From the NCBI GenBank assembly GCA_963851445.1, contig CAWKPH010000001.1, positions 617,363 through 681,362 of the forward strand: a DNA stretch of 64,000 nucleotides, given 5' to 3'. This DNA is from an uncultured bacterium (GTDB taxonomy: Bacteria; Patescibacteriota; Minisyncoccia; Phycocordibacterales; Phycocordibacteraceae). Shown piece by piece: positions 1-25,456 of this stretch. The translations under genes and the position numbers were made by a program. Under the pieces are notes generated by a model. The model searched no databases. It worked only from the letters and a program-made list of their open reading frames with translations, and was not told where the DNA came from. The stretch's first letter is position 1, and every line of letters starts with the position of its first letter.

Positions 1-172
1 CTCCTTACATTCATATACATGGTCTAGTTTAGATAATTTTGGCACCCCTTTAAGTTATAACTCCGATTATTGGTTTAGATTTGTCATCTCACGCTTTTCT
101 TTTTTTGAGCCTGAGCATGTTCTTTATTTCTTTTATGTATTATCTTTTACAGTCTCTAGTTTTTTTACTTAT

Positions 173-9568: not shown

Positions 9569-9869
9569 ATCGCAAGCCCTTTCTGGTTGATGTTGAAAGC
9601 GCTCGAATGCAGTTGTATGCACTCGATGCACTCGAAGCAAACAGGAAGCGGCCTCGCGAATGACCACGACCGCTACCCATCTCAAAGCAAAGAGCATAGA
9701 AGATCTCCAGCAAATAATCCAACGAGATTATGGCGTTGTCCTCAATGACGAAGAAGCCGAAAAGTTCGGTCTCTCTTTGCTAAAAATCACTCGCCTCGCA
9801 ATGACTGCTTTTAACCGGACAGAGGATAAGCACGCCATAACAATTACAAACACAAGCTAACCTTTGTTT

Positions 9870-9921
9870 TCGAGTCGAGCTCCAGTGAAAAGACTTTGCG
9901 GTCGGCACTGGAGCTCGACTC
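9870..9921. promoter_or_regulatory. perfect 17-bp inverted repeat (cgagtcgagctccagtg / cactggagctcgactcg) immediately upstream of prim-pol gene
   Basis: The inverted repeat is seen directly in the sequence. It shares an 11-mer (agtcgagctcc) with the sequence flanking the tRNA att core at 24816-24826. Confidence 0.5.
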
Positions 9922-9938
9922 GGGAACCCGACCGCAAC

Positions 9939-12269: not shown

Positions 12270-12703
12270 TGCCTATGACGAGAATCAACCGCACAGGCAT
12301 CAGCAAGCATATGCCATACACCATAAAAGAACTCACCGGTTTGTTGCATAAAAGCGAAAAGACGCTCGAACGGTGGATGGGCGCTGGCTTGCCAATCGTC
12401 CCTGGCGGTAAAAATCCAATCTTGATACTGGGCGACGACCTCATTGAGTTTCTCAAAAACAAAGATGCGAAACATAAGGTGAAGTTGAAACGAAATGAAT
12501 TTCTTTGCATGAAATGCAAACTACCGCGTCTCGCAAAAAGGGGCACACTCAAGATTCTGAGTGATAGAAAAGAAGGCAACTGCTGTGTCTGTAACAGCAA
12601 AATGAGCAAGCTAATTAAATCTCGTAGGAACCTACTATCTGATACCGCTGTCCCTGATATAAATGTCGGTTTTGACGACCCTCCGCCATCGCCCCTGGTA
12701 TGA
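12269..12703 (+). CDS. small zinc-ribbon/HTH-like protein
   Basis: 144 aa with CMKC…CCVCNSK Cys pairs. Its start overlaps the prim-pol stop (TAATG). Confidence 0.4.
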   Translation: MPMTRINRTGISKHMPYTIKELTGLLHKSEKTLERWMGAGLPIVPGGKNPILILGDDLIEFLKNKDAKHKVKLKRNEFLCMKCKLPRLAKRGTLKILSDRKEGNCCVCNSKMSKLIKSRRNLLSDTAVPDINVGFDDPPPSPLV

Positions 12704-13854
12704 CAAAAACCACCTATCAAAATGAGCAATTAAAGAGAGCCTTCTTCACCTACCTACGAGGTGCGAAGGGCTTTGAGAAAAGCTCTATTCACTCATATGC
12801 AGAAGCAGTCTGGCAATGGCAACTCTTTTCGGACGGCGATGACTTTGCCAGTTTTGATGAGTCAAAGGCATTAGCGTTTAAGGAATGGCTCTCCACTCGA
12901 CCGACCAAGACCAAGGCGGGGCGGCTCAGTCTTGCCACCCAATATAACTATCTCCGTCGCGTGAAGCGCTTTTTCTCATGGCTTTCGGATCGTCCTGGCT
13001 TCAAGAATAAGATACTGAAGGGTGATGTTGAGTTCCTACGCCTATCCAACAAGGACGCTCTTATAGCCCGATCTGGCTCGACCAGAGCCAATCCAACTCT
13101 TGAAGAAGCAAGAAAGCTTATCGAGGGCATTGAAATAAAAAATGAGGTAGACCAGCGGGATAGGGCACTCATCAGCTTTGCCGCAATCACTGGCTGCCGC
13201 ATCTCCGCCCTCATTTCCCTTAGGATGAAGAATTTTGATAAGGAAAAACGCTTGGTGTCCCAAAATCCCGGCGATGGTGTTCATACCAAGGATTCCAAGA
13301 AAATACTCACGCCATTGTATCCAATAGGATGGGACGCGCCTGAGCAGTACTTCATGGAGTGGTTCGAGCATCGTGAGGCAACGGGCTCTCAAGCAGACGA
13401 CCCTATATTCCCAGCAACGGTCGGTGAGATTGGTCGCGTTAAACCAGCTCACGGTAGCGGATTCGTCGGAAATGTTTTTTGGAGCAACCCATCGGGAGCC
13501 CGTAAGGTATTCCAGAAGAGGTGTATGGAAGCGGGCGTGCCGTATTTTCATCCTCACTCGTTTCGACACTTGGCCGTAAGCGTCATGGCAAAAATACCCC
13601 TTACCGAAGAACAGAAGCGTGCCTTTAGCATCACGCTCGGTCATGCCAATGTCACCACCACGTTCGGCTCCTATTGCAGCCGAAACATGAGCAATGAGGA
13701 AGCAGTCCAAATCGTCGAACAGATTAAGGCTTTTGAAGCAAAAGAGGCAGTAAGTGGTCCCACTTTCACGAATGAAGACCGTGCTACTTTAATGGGACTT
13801 TTAGAGAAAATGAAGGCTGCGGAAATCCCCACAACCCCCGATTTGGTCGGTTGA
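12700..13854 (+). CDS. tyrosine site-specific recombinase/integrase (phage integrase family)
   Basis: Catalytic-domain pattern: …TGCRISALISLRMKNF… HPHSFRHLAVSVM… LGHANVTTTFGSY (R…HxxR…Y). Confidence 0.8.
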   Translation: MTKTTYQNEQLKRAFFTYLRGAKGFEKSSIHSYAEAVWQWQLFSDGDDFASFDESKALAFKEWLSTRPTKTKAGRLSLATQYNYLRRVKRFFSWLSDRPGFKNKILKGDVEFLRLSNKDALIARSGSTRANPTLEEARKLIEGIEIKNEVDQRDRALISFAAITGCRISALISLRMKNFDKEKRLVSQNPGDGVHTKDSKKILTPLYPIGWDAPEQYFMEWFEHREATGSQADDPIFPATVGEIGRVKPAHGSGFVGNVFWSNPSGARKVFQKRCMEAGVPYFHPHSFRHLAVSVMAKIPLTEEQKRAFSITLGHANVTTTFGSYCSRNMSNEEAVQIVEQIKAFEAKEAVSGPTFTNEDRATLMGLLEKMKAAEIPTTPDLVG

Positions 13855-13886
13855 CATCTATGTACAACTAGGAGTATGCTTTACGT

Positions 13887-14072
13887 ATGAAATTCTTAAC
13901 GAGAGAAGAAGTAGCCAAGTACCTGCGCGTGCATCCCCGCACCATCGAACGCTGGCTCAAAAGCGGGACCTTGAAGGGATATAAGCTAGGAACCGGAAAG
14001 ACTTCTTTGTGGCGAATATCGGAAGATGAGTTAAAGAAGTTTTTGGAGAAGAATAAAGCTAAACCAATATGA
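13887..14072 (+). CDS. small HTH DNA-binding protein (excisionase/MerR-like)
   Basis: 61 aa (LTREEVAKYLRVHPRTIERWLKSGTLKGYKLG), a typical HTH_17/Xis-like fold. Overlaps the recombinase start. Confidence 0.55.
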   Translation: MKFLTREEVAKYLRVHPRTIERWLKSGTLKGYKLGTGKTSLWRISEDELKKFLEKNKAKPI

Positions 14073-15787
14073 ACCAACCAACAACCATTCGTTATGACGT
14101 GTATCTGCGAAGGTCCAGCAGCGATGCAGAGGATAAGCAGGTTCAATCAATTCCCGACCAGCGACGGGAGCTGAACGAGTACATCGCAAGAAACAACCTC
14201 ACCATCGTCGGAGAGTTCGAGGAATCGCAAAGTGCTCACCATCCCGGCAGACCAGTGTTCAACGAGGTCATGGGGCGTATTGAGAAAGGAGTCTCGAACG
14301 GGTTGCTCGTGTGGCACGCCAATCGTACCTCAAGAAATCCTGTAGACAGCGGCGCTATTATCAACCTTATCGACGAAGGCAAGCTCTTTCATGTCAGAAC
14401 GCCTTCCCACATATACGGCAACACCTCTACAGAAAAGATGATGCTCGCGCTTGAGTGTATGATCGCCAAAAAGGACTCGGACGATAAGAGTGACGCGGTG
14501 AAGCGAGGGCTCCGTGGCCGCTACAAAAAAGGACTCCCGAACGGTGTTGCTCCCATCGGCTTCATTAACGATGTTTCCGTTGAGAAGGGCAATCGTGGCT
14601 GGCTCGTGGATGAGGAGAAGTTCCCGCTCATTGCTCAAGTCTTGGAACTCTTTCACACGGGCAAATATTCGACCAGAGCGTTGCTTCGAATCGCTAACGA
14701 TGAGATGGGACTGCGTACGCCGCAGCACAAGAAACAAGGTGGAAAGAAACTTGTGTATTCGCACTTTATGGAGACCGTGCTCCAGAATCCAGTGTATGCA
14801 GGATTCTTCTTTGCAGATACTGATACGGAAAAAGGTAAAAAGTTTGAACTCGATGCGAGAGTGCCGCGAGCTATCAGCGAGGAGACGTACTGGGAGAATC
14901 AGAAGATACTCGGAAACAAAGGACGAGCGCGACCTTCGAAGAACAAAACATCCTTCGCCTATGTTGGACCGACGACATGCGGCGGGTGCGATGGCGTGGT
15001 GACGGCCGAGCATAAGTACCAGGTCATTTGCGACTGTAAGCTCAAGTTCTATTATATGAATAAAACAGAGTGCCCGGGATGCGGCGTCGCGATAGATAAA
15101 ATGGTAAATCCGCTCTATCTCCACTACGTTTACTACCACTGCACCCGTACCAAAGATCCGACGTGCCGCGAGGGCAGCGTCCAGGAGCTCTACATCGACG
15201 ACACACTCGCTTCGTACTTCAAGGAGAACTTCAAAATCTCACAGTCCTTGCACGACTGGTGCATAGAGAACCTTGAGACCCTCGATATTAAGGATGCAAA
15301 GAATGATGTCGAGAAAACAGCATCGCTGGAGACCACGCTTTCCAAGAAGCAGCATGAGCAGAGGGAACTCGTGCTAATGAAGGCACGCGGACTTCTTGCT
15401 GACGATGCTGAGTTCCTTGAGTTGAAAGGCATCCTGAAGGCAGAAATTGACGTGCTAGAGCAAGCTTTGGCCAAGAATGGAAAACCTATAGACCCAGCGA
15501 AAATCAAGAAGGCTCGCAGAGCGTTTGACCTCTCCCTTGGTATAGAAGAAATCTTCAAAAGTGGTACCCCAGAGGAGAAAAAAGACACCCTACTGGAAAT
15601 CGGATCGAACCTAACTATAAAAGCCAAAACACTCACTGTTTACAACAGCGGAGTGTATAAAAAGATTATAGATGGCCTACTTACCGCCAAGGCGATAAAT
15701 CCTTCGTTCGAACCTGAAAATTGTGAGGCAGATGCTGAACGAAATCCTGTTTTTGCCTCTGTGTTTCCTACTCTGCTCCGCGGGTAG
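14069..15787 (+). CDS. large serine recombinase (resolvase N-domain + recombinase domain + zinc ribbon)
   Basis: Resolvase catalytic N-terminus (YDVYLRRSSSDAED…), then a recombinase domain and Cys-rich zinc ribbon (CGGCDG…CDC…CPGCG), then a coiled-coil tail. The stop codon lies inside the tRNA-derived repeat. Confidence 0.8.
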   Translation: MNQPTTIRYDVYLRRSSSDAEDKQVQSIPDQRRELNEYIARNNLTIVGEFEESQSAHHPGRPVFNEVMGRIEKGVSNGLLVWHANRTSRNPVDSGAIINLIDEGKLFHVRTPSHIYGNTSTEKMMLALECMIAKKDSDDKSDAVKRGLRGRYKKGLPNGVAPIGFINDVSVEKGNRGWLVDEEKFPLIAQVLELFHTGKYSTRALLRIANDEMGLRTPQHKKQGGKKLVYSHFMETVLQNPVYAGFFFADTDTEKGKKFELDARVPRAISEETYWENQKILGNKGRARPSKNKTSFAYVGPTTCGGCDGVVTAEHKYQVICDCKLKFYYMNKTECPGCGVAIDKMVNPLYLHYVYYHCTRTKDPTCREGSVQELYIDDTLASYFKENFKISQSLHDWCIENLETLDIKDAKNDVEKTASLETTLSKKQHEQRELVLMKARGLLADDAEFLELKGILKAEIDVLEQALAKNGKPIDPAKIKKARRAFDLSLGIEEIFKSGTPEEKKDTLLEIGSNLTIKAKTLTVYNSGVYKKIIDGLLTAKAINPSFEPENCEADAERNPVFASVFPTLLRG

Positions 15788-15808
15788 GATTCGAACCTAC
15801 GAACCTAC
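15775..15808 (-). repeat. att-like direct repeat: partial copy of tRNA 3' end (T-arm+acceptor)
   Basis: gctccgcgggtaggattcgaacctacgaacc matches gctccgcgggtagggatcgaacctacgacc at 24822-24851 (about 27/30). It contains the T-loop GGTTCGAATCC on the minus strand. Confidence 0.65.
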
Positions 15809-15937
15809 ATTTTCTGGGAATGGAAATCCATTTAGGAAGTACGGCAAATATCAAGTAAGTGCGAGAGATTATTAGCAAAAGTGCAATTACCACTGATACC
15901 CACACATCATCAAAACTAACCAACTCTTATCACTTCT

Positions 15938-15960
15938 AGGGCAACCCATGGGCAACCATG
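15938..15960. repeat. GGGCAACC tandem repeat (candidate integrase arm-type site), left arm
   Basis: gggcaacccatgggcaaccatgg, about 155 bp from the att core. A near-identical copy (gggcaacccgtgggcaaccactgg) lies at 24688-24712, about 130 bp from the other core. Confidence 0.45.
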
Positions 15961-16107
15961 GACATTACCAACAAAGAGCAGTACATCAGAGTGATAAAAG
16001 TTGAATCTTCAAACGCTGCTTCGCAGTGGTTCTTACTATTGCTGCTGGCTCAAACAATGCTCCCGCCCGGAAGCACGTTCTGTCCCAAGGAGCTATACTT
16101 AGACGTA

Positions 16108-16325
16108 TGAAAATGCACGAACTATTTTCCAAGACAGAGGTAGATGGACGTTTTGAAGCACAAATTGACATGGTTCTTGTGAACGGAAAAGAAATAAAAA
16201 AGGGGCAAAAAGTAGACCTCGATAGCTTAGGTCTTGATTCTTATTTTGACGACGAAGCTTCTGTAGGAGGCCAAATTGCAAATGGAGTGTTTTGTTGGAG
16301 TGGTACCGTACGCAGCGATGTTTGA
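16108..16325 (+). CDS. small hypothetical protein
   Basis: 72-aa ORF from an internal Met of the 16026..16325 ORF. No motif was recognised. Confidence 0.2.
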
Positions 16326-16330
16326 CCGTT

Positions 16331-17482
16331 CTATAATGGCTTTCTTACATCCGGACTTGGAACGTACCCGTAGTGCCTGAGAGCACCATTCAAAGTATTA
16401 AAGAACTCTGGATCAGGCGCAGGGTACTTTGGATGAGGAATAATCACACCCATACTCTCACCTTGCTCTGCCTCGTTCTCGCTCTGATAGTGATAAGAGA
16501 AGTTGGTAAAGAAAGCTGCATTTAAAGGATAGTCACCTGGGTCAAGTCCTTTTAGCTTTTTGGTTACCATCGTCTTTGCTTCTTGAACCCAAGGCTTTTC
16601 ATCCAATGCAACATTTGGAGTAGCAGGTAAGTTTACGTCTATGAAAATTGCGAAAGGAACGTCTTTCGGATTTTGAGTGAGGGCTTCGTTGAAAGTTCTT
16701 CTCATTCGTGCCGAGAGCTCTTCCACGGGGCTTCCTTCTTCGTGTATCACTCCAGCTCTGTGCTTGCTCTTAACCTCCACAGCGAGCGTAAAACCGGTTT
16801 CTCTGTGTTTAGCAACAAACTCACAATGCTTATTCTTACTATTTACATCTGTCCATTCGATGTCACAACCCATCCTTGAGAAAATAGCTGCTATTGCGAT
16901 TTCGTAACGAGCACCTTGATACTCTCGACGTGATTTCAAACGCTGAAGTAATGTCTCTGGCAATATGTTCTTCTGAACGAGACTGCTTACATCAAAAGCG
17001 AGCAAAAGTAATGATTTAACATACCCGTCCGGCATTGCGTTTAAGGGTCCATCTAAAGGTATGTTTCCTATACGTGCTCTCTCACGCAGTATCCACTCAC
17101 CAGTTTTTGCTAGGCATAAAGCGATGTAGTGCCGCTCATTGAGAGGAAGTTTCATTTGTTCTTCCCACCACTCGACTCCCAAGGTGCGTTTCAGCACATC
17201 CACTAAGAACTCATGGAAGGTCTGATTTACATCGTTAGAAGTGTAGATTGCACTTCCAAAAGCCCATACTTTCTTGCCATTAAAGATTACTGGCTCGACG
17301 TAGTGATCAAAGAGACCTGCTTGATGTCGAAGATCTCGTTCCGCTTGTTGTTTCTGGAAAAACTCGATAACTTCTTTGGGTATGGTAGGGGCAGGAGCCG
17401 TATCTTTATTCCAGCAACAATTTTTATACTTTATTCCGCTCCCGCAGTGACACGGAAGATTTCTGTCAGATCCTTTACCCAT
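16331..17482 (-). CDS. SEC-C motif-containing hypothetical protein
   Basis: N-terminal CHCGSGIKYKNCC (SEC-C metal-binding motif). The remaining ~350 aa have no recognisable catalytic motif. Confidence 0.55.
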   Translation of the reverse strand: MGKGSDRNLPCHCGSGIKYKNCCWNKDTAPAPTIPKEVIEFFQKQQAERDLRHQAGLFDHYVEPVIFNGKKVWAFGSAIYTSNDVNQTFHEFLVDVLKRTLGVEWWEEQMKLPLNERHYIALCLAKTGEWILRERARIGNIPLDGPLNAMPDGYVKSLLLLAFDVSSLVQKNILPETLLQRLKSRREYQGARYEIAIAAIFSRMGCDIEWTDVNSKNKHCEFVAKHRETGFTLAVEVKSKHRAGVIHEEGSPVEELSARMRRTFNEALTQNPKDVPFAIFIDVNLPATPNVALDEKPWVQEAKTMVTKKLKGLDPGDYPLNAAFFTNFSYHYQSENEAEQGESMGVIIPHPKYPAPDPEFFNTLNGALRHYGYVPSPDVRKPL

Positions 17483-17662
17483 ACCTACAATTTACTCCTT
17501 TTAACTCTTGATGCTAGGACGGGGAATGGCCTTCACTCCTATTATCTATATGAGAGTGTAGGGCAATCATTTTGTCTGAGAAGATTGTGACAGAACTTGA
17601 CAAAACACCTAAATATGTGTAATATCGTATACGGCTACAAGTCCCTTTACAAAAGGTTCAAC

Positions 17663-17751
17663 CAATCGAGACGAGCTTTTTACGGCTTACCTTCAGTGCG
17701 CAAGTTCTGGACGATTTTTACAACTAGGCCGTAAAAAGCTCGTCTCGATGT
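17663..17751. promoter_or_regulatory. long inverted repeat (21-bp stems: tcgagacgagctttttacggc / gccgtaaaaagctcgtctcga) in divergent intergenic region upstream of DGR target gene
   Basis: Perfect stems separated by about 38 nt. Located between the divergent genes 16331..17482(-) and 17761..18525(+). Confidence 0.45.
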
Positions 17752-17760
17752 GAGACAGAC

Positions 17761-18525
17761 GTGTCCGACGTATTCGGGCTATGGAGACCTTCGATGTCCA
17801 ACATCGACACTCTCGACAAGGCTACCAGTATTCTCGGCACCTGCATCAGGCTGGTGCGCTTGCTCGCTACGGGCGGCGCCACTATCGACCAGCTGCAAGC
17901 GCCCATCAGCATCAAGAGCAAGCGCGAAAACCTGCTGGCCTACCTCGCCGCCGACTGTCCCAAGTTCACGATCGAAGGCGGTGTCGCCATCGCTAAGGCG
18001 CCCAAAGCGCCGAAGCTTCCCGGCAGCGATCGCGTGAAAATCGTCAATAAGACGACCATCAAGGTCAACTGCGGTGCCGATTCCAAGCTCCCGTTCAACG
18101 GAGCCGTGATCGATACCAACTCGGGCGACCGCTGGGTCACGGTCCAAAAGCGCGGCGACGATCTCTATGTCGACGACGTGAAGGTCGACCTGCACCTCGA
18201 CGAAGGCCAGCAAAACGGCAAGGTGTTGCAAGGCCACAAGCTGCGCACCGCCCTCGCTAAGATGACGTCGGTTCATCCGAACGTCATCGACGCCGCCATC
18301 GAACATGGCCTGATGCCGGAAAGCTGGAAAGTGGATGAAAACGGCAAGACCCGCTTCATCTTCTCCTTCGCCGTCATCTTCCGCGACCCGACGCGCGACG
18401 ACCTGTGCGTCCGGTTCTGGTACTGGCGCGAGGGTCGCTGGCAGTCGAACTACCGCTGGCTCTACGATGGCTGGTACGGCATCAGCCCCACGGCCGTGCT
18501 CGGCAAGGTTGAACCTAAGGCCTAA
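17761..18525 (+). CDS. DGR target protein (putative C-type-lectin-fold variable protein) with C-terminal variable repeat
   Basis: The C-terminal ~40 codons (…DPTRDDLCVRFWYWREGRWQSNYRWLYDGWYGISPTAVLG) are homologous to the downstream TR. The region is markedly GC-rich. The real start may be the Met at 17797. Confidence 0.7.
   Translation: MSDVFGLWRPSMSNIDTLDKATSILGTCIRLVRLLATGGATIDQLQAPISIKSKRENLLAYLAADCPKFTIEGGVAIAKAPKAPKLPGSDRVKIVNKTTIKVNCGADSKLPFNGAVIDTNSGDRWVTVQKRGDDLYVDDVKVDLHLDEGQQNGKVLQGHKLRTALAKMTSVHPNVIDAAIEHGLMPESWKVDENGKTRFIFSFAVIFRDPTRDDLCVRFWYWREGRWQSNYRWLYDGWYGISPTAVLGKVEPKA
18379..18506 (+). repeat. DGR variable repeat (VR)
   Basis: 128 bp aligned with the TR at an offset of +521. 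About 16 mismatches, every one at a position where the TR has A. Confidence 0.8.
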
Positions 18526-18579
18526 GCTCCTCGGGTCTCTCAGACTCTTAGGACTTAGTTCTGCATTTTGGGCTCCGCA

Positions 18580-18625
18580 TTTCGTCATCGCGACGGGTGC
18601 GGAGCTTTTCTTTTGCACCACAAGG
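18580..18625 (+). terminator. GC-rich hairpin + T-run downstream of VR/target gene (terminator and/or DGR homing-associated stem-loop)
   Basis: gggctccgca…tgcggagc stem followed by ttttcttttg. It lies about 75 nt after the VR end. Confidence 0.45.
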
Positions 18626-18899
18626 GCATTTCTATTTCTAAATCGCTTCGCTCAAAACAAAATAATGTCATATAGTAGAAACGGTAGTAGGCGAGTACGG
18701 AAGCGATTACGGTTGCTTCCTGCCGAATCCAGTATCCATAGACCGAGAGCGTTTCTGATTACGATTTCAAACGGAGAGGTGTATGTAGAAACTTCAAAAA
18801 TGAAGATACTTGGTGCGAAGCGCTAGGGCATTGCGATGCCGAATACGATTCAACCCGGAGAGTACTCGATGGGTGGTGGCACAGATGGCGCTCCGCACA

Positions 18900-19027
18900 T
18901 TCCGCAACCCGACGAACGACAACCTGTACGTCCGGTACTGGTACTGGAACGAGGGTCGCTGGCAGTCGAACTACAACTGGCTCAACAATGACTGGAACGG
19001 CAACAACCCCACGGCCGTGCTCGGCAA
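18900..19027 (+). repeat. DGR template repeat (TR), non-coding
   Basis: Adenine-rich template (AAC codons in the VR frame). It differs from the VR only at TR adenines. The 3' 21 bp (ccccacggccgtgctcggcaa) are identical in VR and TR. Confidence 0.8.
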
Positions 19028-19033
19028 CTCTCT

Positions 19034-19423
19034 TCATTTCTCTCCCGTACTAACGGGAGAGTTTTGTTTCGTGAGTTGTCCGTTCCATCCGCCGAGCATT
19101 TTTCCAACGTCTTCGAGCGGGACAGACAAGATTGCGTATTTTTTCGTATCAAATGATTTCGTTTCCCAAAGCACCATGAGCAGCACTTTCAGAGTGTCGA
19201 GCTTGCGTATCGCAAGTCGCACGTACGGTTGCTTTTCATTTCGCGCGAGGAAACCAGCACAGGCTATCGCTTCTATGATTTCAATAAAGAGAGTGTCCAC
19301 GCGTTCGCCCGAACTATACCGATGTATCTTCGGAATCGTCTGGTAAAATCCACACCATAGGACATATGTCGATTTCACACGCTCTAACACTGGTAAAAGG
19401 TTCGGGGGGGGGGGTACTTTCAT
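19034..19423 (-). CDS. avd: Avd-like accessory variability determinant (four-helix-bundle protein), encoded on the opposite strand
   Basis: 129 aa. The pattern LERVKSTYVLWCGFYQTIPKIHRYS…LDTLKVLLMVLWE…ILSVPLEDVGKMLGGW resembles bAvd/PF05635 four-helix-bundle proteins. The N-terminal poly-Pro is encoded by a poly-G/C homopolymer. Confidence 0.65.
   Translation of the reverse strand: MKVPPPPNLLPVLERVKSTYVLWCGFYQTIPKIHRYSSGERVDTLFIEIIEAIACAGFLARNEKQPYVRLAIRKLDTLKVLLMVLWETKSFDTKKYAILSVPLEDVGKMLGGWNGQLTKQNSPVSTGEK
19403..19414. repeat. homopolymeric G tract (~10-12 nt) inside the avd start region / upstream of RT
   Basis: tcgggggggggggtac, seen directly. The exact length is ambiguous in my reading (the ORF coordinates imply 11-12 G). 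Confidence 0.6.
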
Positions 19424-19428
19424 AGGTT

Positions 19429-20127
19429 ATGGATTGTATTCAGTATACGGATACATACGAGAATATCATCTCCGTGGAGAATCTCCTTGAAGCGTGGCGG
19501 GAGTTTAAAAGAGGCAAAAAGCATCGCGCTGATGTGCAGCATTTCGAGAGGAACCTGTTATCCCACGTACTGAATCTGCATGAAGACCTGTCCGTTATGC
19601 GATACGTGCATGACGGATACGAAGCATTCCGCATCACCGATCCGAAGCCGCGAGACATACACAAGGCAAGCGTACGGGACAGGCTCCTCCATCATGCAAT
19701 TTATCGAAAGCTCTACCCATTCTTTGACCGCGTGTTCATAAGCGACTCGTATTCATGCAGGAAGGATAAGGGCTCGCATAAGGCGCTCGCGCGCTTCCGT
19801 GCTTATGCCTATAAAGCCTCATCAAACCACATGCGTACCGTATGGATTCTGAAATGTGACATACGAAAGTTCTTCGCTTCGATAGACCATGGAGTGCTAG
19901 TGAATATTCTGAAGCGGTATATCCCCGACGAACGCATCATGTGGCTGTTCGGACAGGTGATCATGAGCTTCAACACTGAGCGGCAGGGAACAGGGCTTCC
20001 GCTAGGCAACCTCACCTCGCAGCTCTTGGTGAATGTGTACATGAACGATTTCGACCAGTTCGCAAAACATAACCGGTATGCTGTTTTTAGTCTTCCTCAT
20101 CACTGTGATATGGCGAGGAATGAATAA
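19429..20127 (+). CDS. DGR-type reverse transcriptase, apparently truncated (fingers/palm motifs 1-4 present; YxDD not found)
   Basis: The RT motifs are present: ILKCDIRKFFASIDH and …GLPLGNLTSQLLVNVYMNDFDQF. The ORF stops about 20 aa later (…KHNRYAVFSLPHHCDMARNE*) without a YADD box, and no continuing frame was found. Confidence 0.65.
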   Translation: MDCIQYTDTYENIISVENLLEAWREFKRGKKHRADVQHFERNLLSHVLNLHEDLSVMRYVHDGYEAFRITDPKPRDIHKASVRDRLLHHAIYRKLYPFFDRVFISDSYSCRKDKGSHKALARFRAYAYKASSNHMRTVWILKCDIRKFFASIDHGVLVNILKRYIPDERIMWLFGQVIMSFNTERQGTGLPLGNLTSQLLVNVYMNDFDQFAKHNRYAVFSLPHHCDMARNE

Positions 20128-20413
20128 CCTAGAAGCACTCTCACCCCTGAATGAGGATGAACTCAAGGGTCCAGAATGGAGGAATCCCAAGTCATTCAGC
20201 AAGGCCAGATGGACCATACCGATACTATGGATCGGGACGCTGGGCATGTTGATACTTGCCTGGGATGGAATTGGAAATGACTTTTCATCGCAACCTGTGA
20301 TTACATGGTCCATTCTCATACTTTTCTTCGGCACTATGTGGTATCGGGGGGCGCATGAATTGCCACCTTTCACCCTTTCAAGCCTATAAAGGCCATTTGT
20401 TATAATAGAAAAT

Positions 20414-21217
20414 ATGCCACTTCCCCTCGATCTCGTCCTCGTCCGCCACGGCCAGTCTGAGGGCAATGCCGCGAAGCGCATGTCTGAGCAGGGAGACAAT
20501 ACTGCATACGACCTCTTGGCTAATCGCCACACGCGAAGCTATCGCCTTTCGGACCTCGGAAGGGACCAGGCCATGAAAGCCGGATTCTGGATCCAGAGGG
20601 AGTTCATTAGGCTTGATAAGAAGCCAATGTTCGACCGCTACATCACTTCTGAATACAACCGCGCGATGGAGACAGCGGCCCTCCTCGATATCCCGAACGC
20701 TGAATGGTTCCGGAACTTCTATTTAACAGAACGCTCATGGGGCGACCTCGAAGACTGTCCTGAAGACGAGCGCCAAGAGAAGTTTGGTGCTGCTCTCAAG
20801 ATGCGGGTTATCGAGCCTTTCTTTTGGCGACCTCCCAACGGCGAATCCTTCGCTGAGCTCTGCTTGCGCCTTGATCGCGTCCTCGACACCCTCCATCGGG
20901 AAAACAGCGATCAACGGGTTATCATCGTCTGTCATGGCGAAGTGATGCGCGCTTTCCGTGTTCTGCTTGAGCGCATGCCGCAGCAGAAGTTTAAGGAACA
21001 ATACCTTTCCAAGGAGAAGGACGATGCCATCTTCAACTGCGAGATCTTTCACTACACACGCAAGGATCCGAAGACGGGCGAAATTGCGGACCATGCCAAC
21101 TGGATGCGGCGTGTACGCCCTAATGAGGCACCTGTATGGGATACGGGATGGCAGACGATCAAACGTCCGCGTTATTCCAATGAGGAATTGCTGGATATCG
21201 CAAGAAAGATAGGATAG
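20414..21217 (+). CDS. histidine phosphatase superfamily (phosphoglycerate-mutase-like) protein
   Basis: N-terminal LVLVRHGQSEGN signature (the RHG motif). 267 aa. Confidence 0.7.
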   Translation: MPLPLDLVLVRHGQSEGNAAKRMSEQGDNTAYDLLANRHTRSYRLSDLGRDQAMKAGFWIQREFIRLDKKPMFDRYITSEYNRAMETAALLDIPNAEWFRNFYLTERSWGDLEDCPEDERQEKFGAALKMRVIEPFFWRPPNGESFAELCLRLDRVLDTLHRENSDQRVIIVCHGEVMRAFRVLLERMPQQKFKEQYLSKEKDDAIFNCEIFHYTRKDPKTGEIADHANWMRRVRPNEAPVWDTGWQTIKRPRYSNEELLDIARKIG

Positions 21218-21240
21218 GATTCCCAGACTAATCCGATGCC

Positions 21241-22035
21241 ATGAATGCAAGGCCTAATCCTGAGATACATATTCCCGAGTTTAAAATACTTGAGAACATT
21301 AATGAAAATGAGGTTAGCAACGCTCTTAATGAGCTTATTGAACTAGGAGGAAACATCACTAACTACAGTCAGAAGTACATTGCAGATGCACATGTCAGCA
21401 TTAATCCATATTTCTACGACGACCTCAGACAATTTTTCATATCTTGGCGAGGTTGCGCAAGGCGAATCCTGAGAAATGCAGGAGAGGCCTTTATGGACGA
21501 AAGTGAGGTCATGGATGAATCAGACAGCATTCCTTTTTTCTCAGTGATAGATGAGAAGCGAGATTCTTACTCAGTAGATACTCAAGAATTGATCTCTGGT
21601 ATACAGCGCGAAACCTCTCGACGACTGGAAACACTACATAAAGCAAGGGGAAAAATCATTGAACAGGAAAATGAGAAAGTTAAGACTAATACACCTATAG
21701 CTTACAATCATTTAACGAGTGAGTTATATGTACGTGGTATTCCCGTACTTATTAATGCGAGAATGACATTAGGAAGTTCAGGGAATAAAGAAACAGAGAT
21801 GCTGGCGATTCTTTTCAACCAGCCAACGAAATCAATGCCTTGTGATGATTTCTGGATGGAGTGGCAGTCTTTTGAAAATAAAGAGGCATATGAGCAAAAA
21901 GCAAAGAAAAACTGGACATCGATATATCAAGCAGCAAATAGGATTAATAAGAAAGTTAGCTATCTCACAAGCAGGAAAAAGCTTATAGATGTGACAAAAT
22001 ATCAGGTTTCGATTCATGTAGAATACCAATCTTAG
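21241..22035 (+). CDS. hypothetical protein
   Basis: 264-aa ORF with no recognisable motif. Located within element B. Confidence 0.45.
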   Translation: MNARPNPEIHIPEFKILENINENEVSNALNELIELGGNITNYSQKYIADAHVSINPYFYDDLRQFFISWRGCARRILRNAGEAFMDESEVMDESDSIPFFSVIDEKRDSYSVDTQELISGIQRETSRRLETLHKARGKIIEQENEKVKTNTPIAYNHLTSELYVRGIPVLINARMTLGSSGNKETEMLAILFNQPTKSMPCDDFWMEWQSFENKEAYEQKAKKNWTSIYQAANRINKKVSYLTSRKKLIDVTKYQVSIHVEYQS

Positions 22036-22078
22036 TTAGCTAACTCTTCGTAACTAGTTTTCTATACGATGGCTCACA

Positions 22079-23374
22079 ATGAGTCAGGAGAAACCATATT
22101 CGCCAAATATCTCTATCGACCCTCTTATTTCGATAGATCCTCGCACTGTTAACCCCTTCAAGCTACCTGATGATTTAGGGTGGGTAGAGGAGTTAGGAAA
22201 GAGTCGGGAGGTTGTACAAGAGATCTCTCATGACGATAAAAAATCACAAGCAGTTCTCACGCGTCTTTCAGATATAACCTCAAGGGCGGTTAGCTGGCTT
22301 TGGCATGAGCGTATCGCGCTTGGGAAGCTCACTATTATCTCTGGGGATCCTGGCCTCGGAAAGAGCTTGTTGACCGCGACAATGGCGGCGATTGTTTCAA
22401 AGGGCGGCTCGTGGCCGCTTGAAGAAACCCCATGTCCAATTGGAAGCGTCGTATTACTTTCTGCTGAAGATGATCCAGCAGACACTATCAAGCCTCGTTT
22501 GGAAGCTGTAAGCGCTGATTGCGAACGCATTCACATACTGCAAGCCATTAAGGACATTGATTCAGCAGGAAATCCCACAGAACGCATGTTTTCACTTAAG
22601 CGTGATATTGCTCTGCTCGAAGACTTACTCCTTTCCTTGCCAGATTGTCGCCTCATCGTTATTGATCCAATCTCAGCGTATCTAGAAGGTGCAGATAGTC
22701 ATAAGAACAGCGACGTTCGAGGACTGCTAGCTCCACTTGCCAAGTTCGCGTCAAATCATAATGTTGCAGTCGTTTTAGTTCAACACTTAAACAAAAACAG
22801 CGGAGGAAGCGCTATGTATCGCTCGATGGGTTCTGTGGCGTTCGTTGCTGCCGTACGAGCTGCATACGTCGTTATTAAAGATCAGAATGACCCCGAGCGA
22901 CGGCTCGTGATGCCGGTCAAGAATAATCTCGCAACAGACAATACTGGTTTGGCTTACTCGGTTCATAACGCAGATAATGGTGCACCAGTCATCGCATGGG
23001 AGAACGAAGCGATAACCATAACAGCAGATGAGGCACTTACTCCGTTAGATTCTAATGTGGAGAAAACAGACACTGATTGGGCCATAGATTTTTTGGAAGG
23101 TGAGCTTTCTGACGGTCCTGTACCAGTTGCTGAAATCAACAAAAGTGCAAAGCAAGTTGGTGTGTCACCAAAATGTCTAAGACGTGCAGCAGAAAAGCTC
23201 GGAATCAAGAGGAAGAAAGATGGCTTCAATAAAGGCTGGGTATGGTCGTTGCCTAGGCACGAAGATGCCCAAGAATACGAAGATGCCCACCTTCAAAACG
23301 AGGGCATCTTGGGAGCAGAAGGGCATCTTCGAAAGGAGATAGGAGATTTAATCGTAAAGGAGGGTTTGGTATGA
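22079..23374 (+). CDS. RepA-like RecA-fold ATPase (AAA_25-type) replication/primase-helicase loader protein of mobile element
   Basis: Walker A motif ISGDPGLGKSLLTATMAA, Walker-B-like RLIVIDPISAYL, then a C-terminal winged-helix-like region. Typical of ICE/plasmid RepA proteins. Confidence 0.65.
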   Translation: MSQEKPYSPNISIDPLISIDPRTVNPFKLPDDLGWVEELGKSREVVQEISHDDKKSQAVLTRLSDITSRAVSWLWHERIALGKLTIISGDPGLGKSLLTATMAAIVSKGGSWPLEETPCPIGSVVLLSAEDDPADTIKPRLEAVSADCERIHILQAIKDIDSAGNPTERMFSLKRDIALLEDLLLSLPDCRLIVIDPISAYLEGADSHKNSDVRGLLAPLAKFASNHNVAVVLVQHLNKNSGGSAMYRSMGSVAFVAAVRAAYVVIKDQNDPERRLVMPVKNNLATDNTGLAYSVHNADNGAPVIAWENEAITITADEALTPLDSNVEKTDTDWAIDFLEGELSDGPVPVAEINKSAKQVGVSPKCLRRAAEKLGIKRKKDGFNKGWVWSLPRHEDAQEYEDAHLQNEGILGAEGHLRKEIGDLIVKEGLV

Positions 23375-23616
23375 TTAAGGTACCCGTCGGTGCTGCCGAT
23401 GATGTACTGCACTTTGAAAACAATTTCGAAGGTTTCTCTCTCACGCTGTTGACCATACCTGAAGTAGCGAAGTTTCTTAGAATCTCATCTACTGGAGTGA
23501 GACGCTTACAAGAACGGCGAATTATTCCCTTCATCAAGGTTGGTGGCAGTGTGCGCTTTCTCAAAGAAGACATTCTTTCTTATTTGCGAAGGCAGCGAGT
23601 GGAATCCATCGAGTAA
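23371..23616 (+). CDS. excisionase/HTH DNA-binding protein
   Basis: 81 aa (LTIPEVAKFLRISSTGVRRLQERRIIPFIKVGGSVRF), a helix-turn-helix of the Xis/MerR type. Sits directly upstream of the integrase. Confidence 0.55.
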   Translation: MIKVPVGAADDVLHFENNFEGFSLTLLTIPEVAKFLRISSTGVRRLQERRIIPFIKVGGSVRFLKEDILSYLRRQRVESIE

Positions 23617-23626
23617 TAGATGATAT

Positions 23627-24769
23627 ATGGCAGTACGAATGATTAAAAAATCGTGGTGGGTGGACATACGCTTCAATCACAGACGATATCGAAAGCGAAG
23701 TCCTGAAAACTCAAAGGCAGGCGCTCAGGCCTATGAAGCTGTCTTGCGACAGAAACTGGCACGAGGAGAGGAAATAGAGAAAACCCAGCTCGTCTTATCG
23801 AAAGAAGAATCGTTTGAGACCTTTGCTTGGAAGTGGTATGACGAATACGTTATACCAAACAACAAGTACTCGACGCAGCAAATGAAGAAGTACATTCTGG
23901 CTGGCTCCCTGATTCCTTTCTTCGGAAAGATACCTGTCCGAAAGATTACCTCGCACCATATAGATCAATTCAAGGCACATTGCCTTAAAAAGGATTCGAG
24001 CCATAAAACAGTGAATAATCATCTTGGGATATTGAGTAAGCTCCTCATGACTGCATATGAATGGATGGAACTTGAATCTGTACCTCCTAAAATAAAACCA
24101 CTCAAATGCCTACCGCCTAGGACAGACTATCTCTCGGCAGAGGAATGTCAGCTGCTCCTATCACACTCGCAAGGTGTGATTCATGAGATGATTCTCACCG
24201 CGTTGCGGACAGGAATGCGACAAGGTGAACTGAAAGGTCTTCAGTGGACTTCAATTGAGTGGGAAAATCGCAATGTGGTGGTGCGACATTCCCAAGATGA
24301 TTATCGCAAGGTACTTGGCACGCCAAAAAGCAACCGAGAACGCAATATCCCTCTAGATATTGATGTATACGAAACGTTCCTGAAGAAAAAAGCTACAGTT
24401 GGGTACGTATTCCTAACTGCTAAAGGAAAACTCTTCACCCATGACCGTATGACAGTCGCAATAGCTCGAGTATGCAAAAAGGTTGGACTACGAAAAATTG
24501 GCTGGCACACGTTACGCCACACCTTCGCAACTCAGCTCGCCACGAAAGGCGTTCCGTTAACAACAATTCAATCACTTCTAGGCCACTCAAGCATCTCTAC
24601 CACCATGAGATACGCGCATGTTGCGCCTTCAACAATGCGGTCAGCAATAGATCTCTTGAGCCCGAGAACGGCCATCCCGATGGATTTTGGGCAACCCGTG
24701 GGCAACCACTGGCTTGCGTCGCTCGACAAAGAAGCGGAAGAGAAAACCCTTAAGGCTAAAAACCCATGA
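23627..24769 (+). CDS. int: tyrosine integrase (phage integrase family) adjacent to tRNA att site
   Basis: …LTALRTGMRQGELKGLQW… GWHTLRHTFATQLATKG… LGHSSISTTMRYAHV (R…HxxR…Y catalytic pattern). Ends 55 bp from the tRNA 3' end. Confidence 0.8.
   Translation: MAVRMIKKSWWVDIRFNHRRYRKRSPENSKAGAQAYEAVLRQKLARGEEIEKTQLVLSKEESFETFAWKWYDEYVIPNNKYSTQQMKKYILAGSLIPFFGKIPVRKITSHHIDQFKAHCLKKDSSHKTVNNHLGILSKLLMTAYEWMELESVPPKIKPLKCLPPRTDYLSAEECQLLLSHSQGVIHEMILTALRTGMRQGELKGLQWTSIEWENRNVVVRHSQDDYRKVLGTPKSNRERNIPLDIDVYETFLKKKATVGYVFLTAKGKLFTHDRMTVAIARVCKKVGLRKIGWHTLRHTFATQLATKGVPLTTIQSLLGHSSISTTMRYAHVAPSTMRSAIDLLSPRTAIPMDFGQPVGNHWLASLDKEAEEKTLKAKNP
24688..24712. repeat. GGGCAACC tandem repeat (candidate arm-type site), right arm, inside int 3' end
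   Basis: gggcaacccgtgggcaaccactgg. Matches 15938-15960 at 22/24 positions. Confidence 0.45.
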
Positions 24770-24862
24770 GTTTACTTGGTGAAAACGACAAACACCACGT
24801 AATGTGGTGTTTGTCAAGTCGAGCTCCGCGGGTAGGGATCGAACCTACGACCAACTCGTTAC

Positions 24863-25415
24863 ATCGCTCCTCTCGTTACCGTGAGGGATGGACTATATCA
24901 TCATCGGTTCTCGATGCGAGGCGCTTCCCAAATCGCCATTGCGATTAAGTACTCCCTTACGGGATAGTCTCTACACCTTCCGAGATTTTGATCTCGGCTT
25001 GGCTCGGGATCGCCCATCCTTCGATATTCGACGGATTAGGGTTTCCCCGAATTCACCTCGTTTTTCATCCAGAATTCCTTCTGAAAGCTGCGTGATGCCA
25101 TCGTGTACTTCGGCGTGACAATTTGCGCAAAGTAATACGCATTTTTCCAATTCAGCCAGCATCTTTCCCCACGACCTTGTAAGGCCCCTCACCGAAAGAC
25201 CGAAATCTTTCTTTGAAGGATCTAGGTGATGGAATACCATTGCTCGTCTAGATCGGTCATATCCGCATAAAATGCACTTGCCTCCACCGTATTCGAGAGC
25301 CATATCGCGAAGTTTTTTACGCCTTGCAGAAACAGCTTTCTTCAAATATTCGGCACGATCAGCATAGGTTCGCCTTTCTGGCATATACACATGAATATAC
25401 CATTGGGCTTGTCCA
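24863..25415 (-). other. ~550-nt intervening sequence in tRNA anticodon loop (putative self-splicing group I-type intron) carrying an HNH homing-endonuclease ORF
   Basis: The inferred exon/intron junctions obey group I rules (5' exon ends in U, insert ends in G). The intron class was not verified structurally. Confidence 0.45.
24971..25390 (-). CDS. HNH endonuclease (homing-endonuclease-like) inside tRNA intron
   Basis: CILCGYDRS…FHHLDPSKKDF…LLCANCHAEVH (Cys pairs plus HNH catalytic histidines). A basic C-terminal tail. Confidence 0.7.
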   Translation of the reverse strand: MYMPERRTYADRAEYLKKAVSARRKKLRDMALEYGGGKCILCGYDRSRRAMVFHHLDPSKKDFGLSVRGLTRSWGKMLAELEKCVLLCANCHAEVHDGITQLSEGILDEKRGEFGETLIRRISKDGRSRAKPRSKSRKV

Positions 25416-25456
25416 CAGCGAGCCGCTCTACCACTGAGCTACCGCGGAATACTATT

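What the first reader, a model, noticed from the sequence alone, without database searches (positions are those of the whole stretch)
19429..20400. DGR reverse transcriptase appears truncated before the catalytic YxDD motif
The RT ORF carries motifs 1-4 but terminates about 20 aa after motif 4 (…KHNRYAVFSLPHHCDMARNE*). No downstream frame continues with YADD or thumb sequence. The local string RYA-VFSL sits where RYADDFVL would be expected, which suggests a small deletion. This would make the DGR a decaying cassette, or the assembly is erroneous.
Basis: seen in the sequence. Interest (0 to 1): 0.55.

Follow-up and report, generated by a model that had tools for sequence, protein, structure and literature searches.

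The report
DGR reverse transcriptase cut by deletion
The reverse transcriptase gene of this hypermutation cassette really has lost its catalytic half, but to a break of several kilobases inside a mobile element inserted next to a tRNA gene, not to a small indel, and an otherwise identical copy with the complete gene exists in another assembly, so this is ordinary gene loss or a mis-joined assembly.

Summary
ORF 19429..20127 (232 aa) is a DGR-type reverse transcriptase (RT) that stops after motif 4. No YxDD or thumb sequence exists anywhere in the 64-kb window.

The proposed cause, a small deletion at "RYA-VFSL", is wrong. A Logan contig from run ERR11630394 (L001) matches window 15770-20074 with no mismatches and only a 2-nt poly-G length difference. 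It encodes the full 328-aa RT (RYADDF at residues 223-228). Identity stops exactly after base 20074, and beyond that point the two sequences are unrelated. L001 runs on through the rest of the RT and at least 5.3 kb more, ending in a small terminase gene. The window instead runs into a module with a histidine phosphatase, an AAA_25 protein, an HTH_17 protein and a tyrosine integrase, which abuts tRNA-Asn.

A related genome with an empty site (L009) shows that window 15803-24838 is one island integrated into tRNA-Asn. The DGR sits at its left end and the integrase at its right. The window's copy lacks the island's interior, from RT codon 216 onwards.

The rest of the DGR is pristine: all 16 TR/VR mismatches fall at TR adenines, and avd is intact. 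The event is therefore very recent, or it is a chimeric join in the assembly.

My estimates are about 0.6 for a real deletion, about 0.3 for an assembly artefact and under 0.02 for a small indel. The finding is ordinary and of low interest.

The parts
15775..15802 (-). attL: a relic of the tRNA-Asn 3' end. The 12-nt crossover core TCGAACCTACGA lies at 15791-15802, and the island's left arm starts at 15803.
   Evidence: Pattern search found this second tRNA T-arm copy with 3 mismatches. In the three-way alignment with the empty-site relative L009, its left flank matches L009 and its right flank is island sequence. Logan contigs L005 and L001 overlap here by 30 nt.
16107..16325 (+). 72-aa ORF of unknown function. 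In the intact island (L001) a paralog 80% identical at DNA level sits just after the RT stop codon, so the DGR is bracketed by a 234-bp direct repeat.
   Evidence: blastn places L001 4647-4879 on window 16087-16320 at 79.9% identity. The gene is called in L001. It has no Pfam or PHROG match.
16331..17482 (-). 383-aa protein with an N-terminal SEC-C metal-binding motif. It is island cargo next to the DGR.
   Evidence: Pfam SEC-C, E=2e-6. The identical protein is on L001.
17761..18525 (+). DGR target gene (254 aa; the start codon is uncertain) with the variable region at its C-terminus.
   Evidence: ORF list. The VR lies in the last 49 codons, and the TR reads in frame with AAC/Asn at the variable positions. 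No Pfam, NCBIfam or PHROG family matched.
18379..18506 (+). Variable region (VR).
   Evidence: 128-nt direct repeat of the TR at 87.5-88% identity. All 16 differences fall at TR adenines. The VR is identical in L001, since there are 0 mismatches across 15770-20074.
18900..19027 (+). Template region (TR), followed by a terminator-like hairpin at 19040-19061.
   Evidence: The TR has only one VR partner in the window.
19034..19423 (-). avd accessory gene, oriented divergently from the RT. Its N-terminus depends on the length of the poly-G tract at 19404-19414.
   Evidence: NCBIfam DivGenRetAVD E=1.8e-14 (53.9 bits, curated cut-off 80). Pfam bAvd E=1.2e-7 (32.6 bits, cut-off 40). The window has 11 G and L001 has 13 G.
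19429..20074 (+). RT remnant: codons 1-215 plus the first base of codon 216 (fingers and palm motifs 1-4, including LPLGNLTSQ). It is 100% identical to the intact ortholog.
20075..20127 (+). Foreign read-through tail of the RT ORF (residues 216-232, RYAVFSLPHHCDMARNE, then stop). The breakpoint is 20074|20075.
   Evidence: Alignment with L001. Similarity to the RT C-terminus does not exceed chance.
20078..20389 (+). 103-aa hydrophobic ORFan. It is the first ORF to the right of the junction and starts 3 nt after it.
   Evidence: It has no homolog except itself among 5.8 billion proteins. Logan contig L002 starts inside it, and L002 base 1 is T where the window has c at 20092. That would be a synonymous GTC/GTT change in this frame if the two preceding bases, which L002 does not cover, are the same.
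20414..23374 (+). Right-arm genes of the island: histidine phosphatase 20414..21217, unknown 264-aa protein 21241..22035, and an AAA_25 protein resembling the ATPase part of phage primase/helicases at 22079..23374.
   Evidence: Pfam His_Phos_1 E=5e-27 and AAA_25 E=8.8e-33. PHROG DNA primase/helicase and polymerase/primase families, about 1e-16. 100% identical to Logan contig L002.
23371..24769 (+). Excisionase-like HTH_17 protein (23371..23616) and tyrosine integrase (23627..24769).
   Evidence: Pfam HTH_17 E=1.7e-13. Phage_integrase E=3.1e-29. PHROG integrase E=6.8e-62 and an excisionase family E=4.4e-7.
24823..25448 (-). tRNA-Asn(GTT), the integration target (attR core at 24839-24850). A 553-nt group I intron (24861..25413) in the anticodon loop carries an HNH endonuclease ORF (24971..25390).
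   Evidence: ARAGORN run with introns allowed. Rfam RF00028 scores 65.5 bits against a gathering score of 50. PHROG HNH E=2e-26. attR structure.

Best explanation
Window 15803-24838 is a mobile island integrated into the 3' end of tRNA-Asn. A complete-looking DGR (target with VR, TR, avd, RT) is cargo at its left end. A replication, excision and integration module (AAA_25, HTH_17, tyrosine integrase) forms its right end. In an independent assembly of an essentially identical population, the left end continues through a full 328-aa RT and at least 5.3 kb of further genes up to a small terminase, so the intact island is probably a prophage or phage-like element.

In the genome of this window, one deletion or illegitimate recombination joined RT codon 216 (base 20074) to a point 3 nt upstream of the first right-arm ORF (base 20075). 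That removed the RT's catalytic YADD motif, palm motifs 6-7, the thumb and the island's interior. The remaining 215-residue fragment with its 17-residue foreign tail lacks two of the three catalytic aspartates, so by established RT biochemistry it cannot polymerise. The cassette can no longer diversify its target unless another RT acts in trans, and the VR is frozen.

The event is very recent. The rest of the cassette shows no decay and is base-for-base identical to the intact allele.

Shown: the breakpoint, the intact allele, the att structure and the integrity of TR, VR and avd. Inferred: that the junction exists in real DNA, that it arose by deletion, and that the left and right arms belong to one element rather than two tandem ones.
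For: The breakpoint is exact. L001 1-4307 matches window 15770-20074 with 0 mismatches and one 2-nt poly-G length difference. After that, similarity is no better than chance.

An intact allele exists. P0121 (328 aa) has RYADDF and matches RVT_1 positions 10-203 of 205.

No RT C-terminus occurs anywhere in the 64 kb.

The island boundaries are clear. The empty-site relative L009 has the serine recombinase directly followed by tRNA-Asn, then grx, hpf, fmt and def. The window's attL and attR are the reciprocal hybrids around the core TCGAACCTACGA.

Both island ends occur 100% identical in ERR11630394 as contigs L001 and L002. L001 adjoins the left flank contig L005 through a 30-nt overlap.

L001's right end encodes a small terminase (Pfam GP3_package E=3.7e-8; PHROG small terminase E=7.5e-5).

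The join is not repeat-driven. L001 and L002 share no 15-mer. L001 is unbranched at the breakpoint in a graph whose contigs overlap by 30 nt. 18 nt of unique sequence (20075-20092) lie in frame with ORF 20078..20389.

The loss is recent. All 16 TR/VR mismatches are at TR adenines, avd is intact, and RT codons 1-215 are unchanged.
Against: The truncated 232-aa protein is on record only on the source contig.

The only independent assembly of the same sequence carries the intact RT and passes the breakpoint without a branch. The junction is therefore absent or rare in that run.

L002's first base (T) differs from the window's c at 20092.

The Logan contigs break at 15770-15799, 20092/3, 24852 and 25415. 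This points to strain heterogeneity at the locus, which is the setting in which metagenome-assembled genomes become chimeric.

The native sequence to the left of the right arm could not be obtained, so the deletion's right endpoint is not verified.

No reads were available.
Confidence: 0.6

Rival explanations
1. Assembly chimera. The organism carries the intact island, as in L001 ... L002, and the 688-kb contig was mis-joined across a strain-variable island. It would have skipped from the middle of the RT to the right arm, or taken a rare or chimeric read path. In that case the DGR is functional in vivo.
For: The truncated ORF exists only on the source contig. Logan contig L001, from a run with a 100% identical flank, has the full RT and no branch at the breakpoint. 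The locus is fragmented at several branch points in that run, which signals co-existing structural variants. L002's base 1 differs from the window.
Against: L001 and L002 share no 15-mer, and no repeat of 30 nt or more exists at the breakpoint that could mislead a graph or overlap assembler. The junction carries 18 nt of unique sequence that continues the downstream ORF in frame. A mis-join would not normally create such sequence. A single 688-kb contig suggests long-read or curated assembly, but this is an inference and was not verified.
Confidence: 0.3
2. Insertion rather than deletion. The integrase-bearing right-arm module (20075-24838) is a separate small element that inserted into the RT gene. 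The RT 3' part and the rest of the DGR-bearing island would then have been displaced elsewhere in the genome or lost later.
For: The right arm is a self-contained module of replication, excisionase and integrase genes, and it assembles as its own 4.76-kb contig. A second element with the same module order (PrimPol, HTH_17, integrase) lies just to the left, so accretion of elements at this tRNA is real.
Against: tRNA-Asn and core genes follow directly to the right of the module. There is no RT 3' part anywhere in the remaining 39 kb. There is no copy of the att core or tRNA fragment at 20075. Only 'AACC' is shared with the core at the junction, which is not beyond chance.
Confidence: 0.06
3. 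One reading: a small in-gene deletion or frameshift (RYA[DDF]V-FSL), leaving the C-terminal domain decayed just downstream.
For: Only the chance occurrence of the tripeptide RYA a few residues before the position where RYADDF is expected.
Against: The identical ortholog diverges completely at 20074|20075. The window's RYA codons lie in the unrelated sequence. Local DNA and protein alignments downstream score within the shuffle distribution. tblastn finds no thumb remnant.
Confidence: 0.01
4. The 215-residue fragment is a functional, naturally short or split RT whose catalytic half is supplied from another locus.
For: No direct evidence. The N-terminal part is intact, and avd and TR are preserved.
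Against: All 120 listed homologs but three (224, 257 and 291 aa, each on a contig under 3 kb) are 312-383 aa. A ≥90%-identical, full-length version exists. The ORF ends in 17 residues read out of frame from a neighbouring ORF. No partner ORF is in the window. No split DGR RT is known to me; this rests on my own knowledge.
Confidence: 0.02

Closest known systems
Diversity-generating retroelements of Candidate Phyla Radiation / Patescibacteria genomes (surveyed e.g. in PMC8144416, which I read; the link to an earlier CPR/DPANN survey rests on my own knowledge)
   Same: The RT N-terminal 215 residues are 61-72% identical to hundreds of 325-345-aa RTs from Parcubacteria-type metagenome genomes. 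The motif-4 signature LGNLTSQ is present. There is a TR/VR pair with adenine-only mismatches, an Avd gene, and a VR at the C-terminus of a small target protein.
   Different: The RT lacks motif 5 (YADD), motifs 6-7 and the thumb. avd lies on the opposite strand between the TR and the RT. The target matches no Pfam, NCBIfam or PHROG family.
Bordetella phage BPP-1 DGR (mtd-avd-TR-brt), the prototype (from my own knowledge)
   Same: It has the same four components and the same adenine-specific TR-to-VR information flow. It is carried by a temperate phage-like element that integrates in the host chromosome.
   Different: In BPP-1 all parts are co-oriented and the RT is complete. Mutation of the YMDD box abolishes homing in BPP-1, which is the basis for calling the window's copy dead. 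Sequence identity to BPP-1 was not measured here.
DGRs scored 'inactive' in metagenome surveys (PMC8144416 classifies DGRs as active or inactive from VR single-nucleotide variants)
   Same: A cassette whose VR would no longer diversify.
   Different: Here the cause is visible as a precise structural lesion in the RT, and the intact allele is at hand for comparison. That survey inferred inactivity from population data, not from RT lesions.
tRNA-targeting integrative elements and prophage remnants with integrase, AlpA/HTH_17 excisionase and primase-helicase modules (P4-like satellites, integrative mobilisable elements; from my own knowledge)
   Same: A tyrosine integrase lies next to a tRNA 3' end. 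The hybrid attL/attR sites carry a 12-nt core. An HTH_17 excisionase-like gene and an AAA_25 or PrimPol replication gene are present. Elements are accreted in tandem at one tRNA.
   Different: No sequence-level relationship to P4 or any named element was shown. The closest IMG/VR relative of the AAA_25 protein is 32% identical. Excision or mobility was not tested.

Membership tests
Diversity-generating retroelement (DGR) | TR/VR repeat pair whose differences are confined to adenines of the TR | tested here: met
   128-nt repeat (18900-19027 and 18379-18506) with 16 mismatches, all at TR adenines and none elsewhere.
Diversity-generating retroelement (DGR) | RT of the DGR type (motif 4 with the [I/L]GxxxSQ signature) adjacent to the TR | tested here: met
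   LPLGNLTSQ lies at residues 190-198. RVT_1 E=2.2e-10. The RT starts 402 nt downstream of the TR. Best homologs are full-length RTs from CPR genomes. No DGR-specific RT profile was available; NCBIfam gave only sub-threshold matches to group II intron, retron and Drt models.
Diversity-generating retroelement (DGR) | Catalytically complete RT (motif 5 YxDD, motifs 6-7, thumb) | tested here: not met
   The RVT_1 match ends at profile position 143 of 205. There is no YxDD or thumb in any frame of the window. The ortholog P0121 does meet this feature. The window therefore holds an inactivated DGR, not a working one.
Diversity-generating retroelement (DGR) | Accessory variability determinant (Avd) | tested here: met
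   NCBIfam DivGenRetAVD E=1.8e-14 covering 102 of 104 profile positions, and Pfam bAvd E=1.2e-7. Both fall below the curated cut-offs (53.9 vs 80 bits; 32.6 vs 40 bits), so this is a divergent member.
Diversity-generating retroelement (DGR) | VR at the C-terminus of a target protein with a C-type-lectin or similar variable fold | tested here: inconclusive
   The VR occupies the last 49 codons of ORF 17761..18525. No family matched. No structure prediction was run.
Diversity-generating retroelement (DGR) | Ongoing mutagenic homing (VR diversity within the population) | not testable with these tools
   This needs reads. The VR is identical between the window and L001, which says only that the two are very close.
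tRNA-integrating mobile element (tyrosine-integrase island or prophage) | Tyrosine integrase adjacent to one end | tested here: met
   Phage_integrase E=3.1e-29 and PHROG integrase E=6.8e-62. The gene ends 53 nt before the tRNA 3' end.
tRNA-integrating mobile element (tyrosine-integrase island or prophage) | Hybrid attL/attR sites flanking the element, and an empty site in a relative | tested here: met
   L009 has the serine recombinase followed directly by intact tRNA-Asn. The window's attL and attR are the reciprocal recombinants around the core TCGAACCTACGA.
tRNA-integrating mobile element (tyrosine-integrase island or prophage) | Virion genes (needed to call it a prophage) | tested here: inconclusive
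   The window's copy has none. The intact allele L001 ends in a partial small terminase (GP3_package E=3.7e-8; PHROG E=7.5e-5). The rest of the island could not be retrieved.

The most novel reading that the evidence does not exclude
The intact and the RT-deleted islands co-exist in one natural Patescibacteria population with identical VRs. Deletion within a mobile island would then act as a naturally occurring, heritable off-switch that freezes a DGR-diversified surface protein in part of the population. This would give a rare matched pair for measuring what DGR activity costs or gains in the wild.
Probability: 0.3. Interest if true: 0.35.

Novelty: new member of a known kind. Interest (0 to 1): 0.25.

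Why it matters
For annotation, this DGR should be recorded as RT-defective, or the contig flagged at 20074|20075, and not counted among active hypermutation systems. Whether the lineage has actually lost targeted hypermutation depends on whether the junction is real.

The case also shows a useful general check. A truncated retroelement gene in a metagenome-assembled genome can be resolved to a single-base breakpoint by finding the intact allele in an independent assembly.

If both alleles truly co-exist, the pair would allow a direct population-level comparison of DGR-on and DGR-off lineages. Otherwise this is routine decay of mobile-element cargo.

Tried and rejected
1. A search for the missing RT half in the window found only chance hits. 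I used a regex for YxDD and a tblastn with ten full-length homologs at E<=10. A recurrent 15-residue match at 21816-21860 on the minus strand had E of about 1 and came from related queries, so I rejected it.

2. A small deletion or frameshift was rejected on the alignment with L001 and on shuffle-controlled local alignments.

3. I searched the GTDB species genomes for the RT 3' part with the 24-mer ACTACATACGTTATGCAGATGATT. It hit only an unrelated DGR (L003, 64-66% DNA identity) that shares the conserved motif. That used the single genome-contig scan, so I could not check whether the source genome is in that collection.

4. I tried to recover the native left flank of the right arm. An exact 37-mer search in JGI metagenomes gave 0 hits. 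The 103-aa ORF has no homolog. The JGI histidine phosphatase from the same 90%-identity cluster sits 35 nt from its contig's end, and no DNA was served.

6. IMG/VR relatives of the AAA_25 protein and of the RT were only 32% and 34% identical, which was uninformative.

7. I looked for an att core or microhomology at the junction. Only 'AACC' is shared with the core, which is not beyond chance. The 18-mer 20075-20092 occurs nowhere else.

8. Exact look-up of P0001 and of the hpf-like ORF returned nothing on record.

Full report
**1. What is in the sequence**

The ORF at 19429..20127 (+) encodes 232 aa and ends ...NDFDQFAKHNRYAVFSLPHHCDMARNE*. Pfam RVT_1 matches residues 75-214, which correspond to profile positions 10-143 of 205 (E=2.2e-10).

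A search of 5.8 billion proteins returned thousands of relatives. The 120 best are nearly all 325-345 aa, 61-72% identical, and come from Parcubacteria/Patescibacteria metagenome genomes. In a multiple alignment, the window protein follows them up to ...FDQFAKHN. The relatives then continue LKAxYYIRYADDFVILS plus about 100 more residues.

Neither a six-frame motif scan nor a tblastn of ten full-length relatives against all 64 kb at E<=10 found the missing part.

**2. The DGR context is real and otherwise intact**

- A 128-nt direct repeat links 18379-18506, at the C-terminal end of ORF 17761..18525, with 18900-19027.
- The two copies differ at 16 positions, and every one is an adenine in the second copy. 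That makes the second copy the TR and the first the VR.
- In frame, the TR reads AAC/Asn at the variable positions.
- An Avd gene lies on the minus strand between the TR and the RT, at 19034..19423. NCBIfam DivGenRetAVD gives E=1.8e-14 and Pfam bAvd gives E=1.2e-7. Both are below the curated cut-offs.
- The TR has no second VR partner in the window.

**3. The intact allele and the exact breakpoint**

The 90%-identity cluster that holds the 232-aa protein has one other member, P0121. It is 328 aa and comes from Logan contig ERR11630394_2641898, fetched as L001 (9,598 bp).

P0121 is identical to the window protein through N215. It then reads LKAEYYIRYADDFTFLS... to residue 328, and it matches RVT_1 positions 10-203 of 205.

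At DNA level, L001 1-4307 equals window 15770-20074 with no mismatch. The only difference is the length of a poly-G tract, 13 G in L001 against 11 G in the window. Identity ends exactly after base 20074:

- window: ...AAAACATAACC|GGTATGCTGTTTT
- L001...AAAACATAACC|TGAAAGCGGAATACTACATACGTTATGCAGATGAT

Downstream of that point, local DNA and protein alignments score within the range of shuffled controls. The DNA score is 12 against 12.4 ± 1.7 for shuffles, and the upstream control scores 400.

The tripeptide RYA in the window's tail is therefore a coincidence. It lies in unrelated sequence that is read out of frame from the next ORF.

**4. What lies on the other side of the break**

Window 20093-24852 is 100% identical to a second Logan contig from the same run, L002 (4,761 bp). 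It carries:

- a 103-aa hydrophobic ORFan, which has no homolog in the protein database;
- a histidine phosphatase and a 264-aa protein of unknown function;
- an AAA_25 protein resembling the ATPase part of phage primase/helicases;
- an HTH_17 excisionase-like protein;
- a tyrosine integrase.

It ends in the last 30 nt of a tRNA gene. ARAGORN run with introns allowed identifies this as tRNA-Asn(GTT), at 24823..25448 on the minus strand. A 553-nt group I intron splits its anticodon loop (Rfam RF00028, 65.5 bits) and encodes an HNH endonuclease. To the right of the tRNA lie core genes: hpf, fmt, def, priA, murA and mreB.

A second, slightly different copy of the tRNA 3' end sits at 15775-15802. 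This is exactly where L001 begins, directly after a serine recombinase. To its left lies another element with PrimPol, HTH_17 and a tyrosine integrase.

**5. The island and its att sites**

An ENA contig from a related species, L009, carries that same left-hand element at 85% DNA identity. In L009 the serine recombinase is followed directly by an intact, intron-less tRNA-Asn and then by grx, hpf, fmt and def. L009 is thus an "empty site".

The three-way alignment gives these results:

- The window's attL consists of the L009 left flank, the core TCGAACCTACGA (15791-15802) and island sequence.
- The window's attR consists of island sequence, the same core (24839-24850) and the L009 tRNA.
- Window 15803-24838, about 9.0 kb, is therefore an island integrated into tRNA-Asn. 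The DGR is at its left end and the integrase module at its right end.

In ERR11630394 both ends are present and identical to the window. The left-flank contig L005 ends at window 15799 and overlaps L001 by 30 nt, which indicates a k=31 graph. There, however, the left arm continues through the complete RT and at least 5.3 kb more. That stretch holds a 73-aa paralog of ORF 16107..16325, a DUF4238 protein, further ORFs of unknown function, and a partial small terminase. None of it is in the window.

The simplest reading is that the window holds the same island minus its interior. I could not decide whether the intact island is one phage-like element or two elements in tandem.

**6. How the RT was lost, and how sure this is**

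For a real deletion or illegitimate recombination:

- L001 and L002 share no 15-mer.
- L001 is unbranched at the breakpoint in a k=31 graph, so there is no repeat of 30 nt or more that could mislead an assembler or drive homologous recombination.
- The junction contains 18 nt found nowhere else. These 18 nt continue ORF 20078..20389 in frame.
- The single c/T difference from L002 at 20092 would be a synonymous third-position change in that ORF.
- Three recombinase genes and several element boundaries crowd the locus.

For an artefact:

- The truncated protein is on record only on the 687,765-bp source contig.
- The only independent assembly has the intact gene and no trace of the junction.
- The Logan contigs break at 15770-15799, 20092/3, 24852 and 25415. 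This shows co-existing structural variants, which is the typical setting for chimeric contigs.

Without reads, I put a real deletion at about 0.6, a chimeric join at about 0.3, and insertion with displacement at about 0.06. A small indel or a functional split RT gets about 0.03 together.

**7. Consequence**

The fragment keeps the fingers and palm motifs 1-4 but lacks the YADD box, which supplies two of the three catalytic aspartates. It also lacks the thumb. From established RT biochemistry, and from the BPP-1 DGR where YMDD mutants abolish homing (my own knowledge), it cannot synthesise cDNA. If the junction is real, mutagenic homing in this genome has stopped unless another RT acts in trans.

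The TR/VR pair has no non-adenine mismatches, avd is intact, and RT codons 1-215 are unchanged. The 4.3 kb, including the VR, is base-for-base identical to the intact allele. All of this dates the event as very recent.

**8. Comparison with what is known, and novelty**

The cassette belongs to the DGRs common in Patescibacteria (surveys such as PMC8144416). It meets the TR/VR, Avd and RT-type criteria and fails the criterion of a complete RT.

Loss of cargo genes by deletion inside integrated elements, and accretion of integrase elements at a tRNA, are both well known. This is a new instance of a known kind. Its main value is for annotation and quality control, with modest extra interest if both alleles really co-exist in one population.

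Noticed in passing
window 24823..25448 (-); intron 24861..25413; ORF 24971..25390 (-): tRNA-Asn(GTT) is interrupted in the anticodon loop by a 553-nt group I intron that encodes an HNH endonuclease. The default tRNA scan missed the gene. The related genome L009 has the same tRNA without an intron. Logan contig L006 ends at window 25415, one base from the exon/intron boundary (25413|25414), so the intron may be polymorphic in that sample.
   Followed up: partly
window 19404-19414: A poly-G tract lies between the divergent avd and RT starts. It is 11 G in the window and 13 G in the otherwise identical L001. This changes the apparent Avd N-terminus (129 aa against 118 aa as called). It could be sequencing error or phase-variable length.
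   Followed up: partly
window 9864..15802: A second integrative element lies directly to the left of the DGR island. It carries PrimPol (9864..12269), an HTH_17 protein (12269..12703), a tyrosine integrase (12700..13854) and a large serine recombinase (14069..15787), and it ends at the tRNA relic. Elements have therefore accreted in tandem at tRNA-Asn. An 85%-identical copy sits next to the same tRNA in another species (L009).
   Followed up: partly
window 16087-16320 and L001 4647-4879: In the intact island, the DGR plus the SEC-C gene is bracketed by a 234-bp direct repeat (80% identity). The repeat encodes paralogous ORFs of 72 and 73 aa with unknown function. The window retains only the left copy.
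   Followed up: no
L001 4943..9597: Genes downstream of the intact RT include a DUF4238 protein, an ORF with a weak precomputed PycTM hit that my Pfam scan did not reproduce, and a partial small terminase. This suggests the DGR rides at the edge of a prophage that also carries defence-like cargo.
   Followed up: partly
window 19040-19061: A strong hairpin of 9 base pairs followed by a T-run lies immediately after the TR. It overlaps the stop-codon end of avd on the other strand. The TR would therefore not be co-transcribed with the RT on the plus strand, which is an unusual layout for a DGR.
   Followed up: no
window 1-3000: G+C content is 32-35% in the first 2 kb, against about 47-50% in the rest of the window. 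ORFs there include a Laminin_G_3/concanavalin-like protein (1883..3100, minus strand). This may mark another horizontally acquired segment.
   Followed up: no
window 17779..18621 (-): A long antisense ORF (280 aa) overlaps the DGR target gene. The gene caller on L001 chose that strand (269 aa). The plus-strand reading is supported by the VR/TR codon pattern, so public annotations of this locus may have the target on the wrong strand.
   Followed up: no
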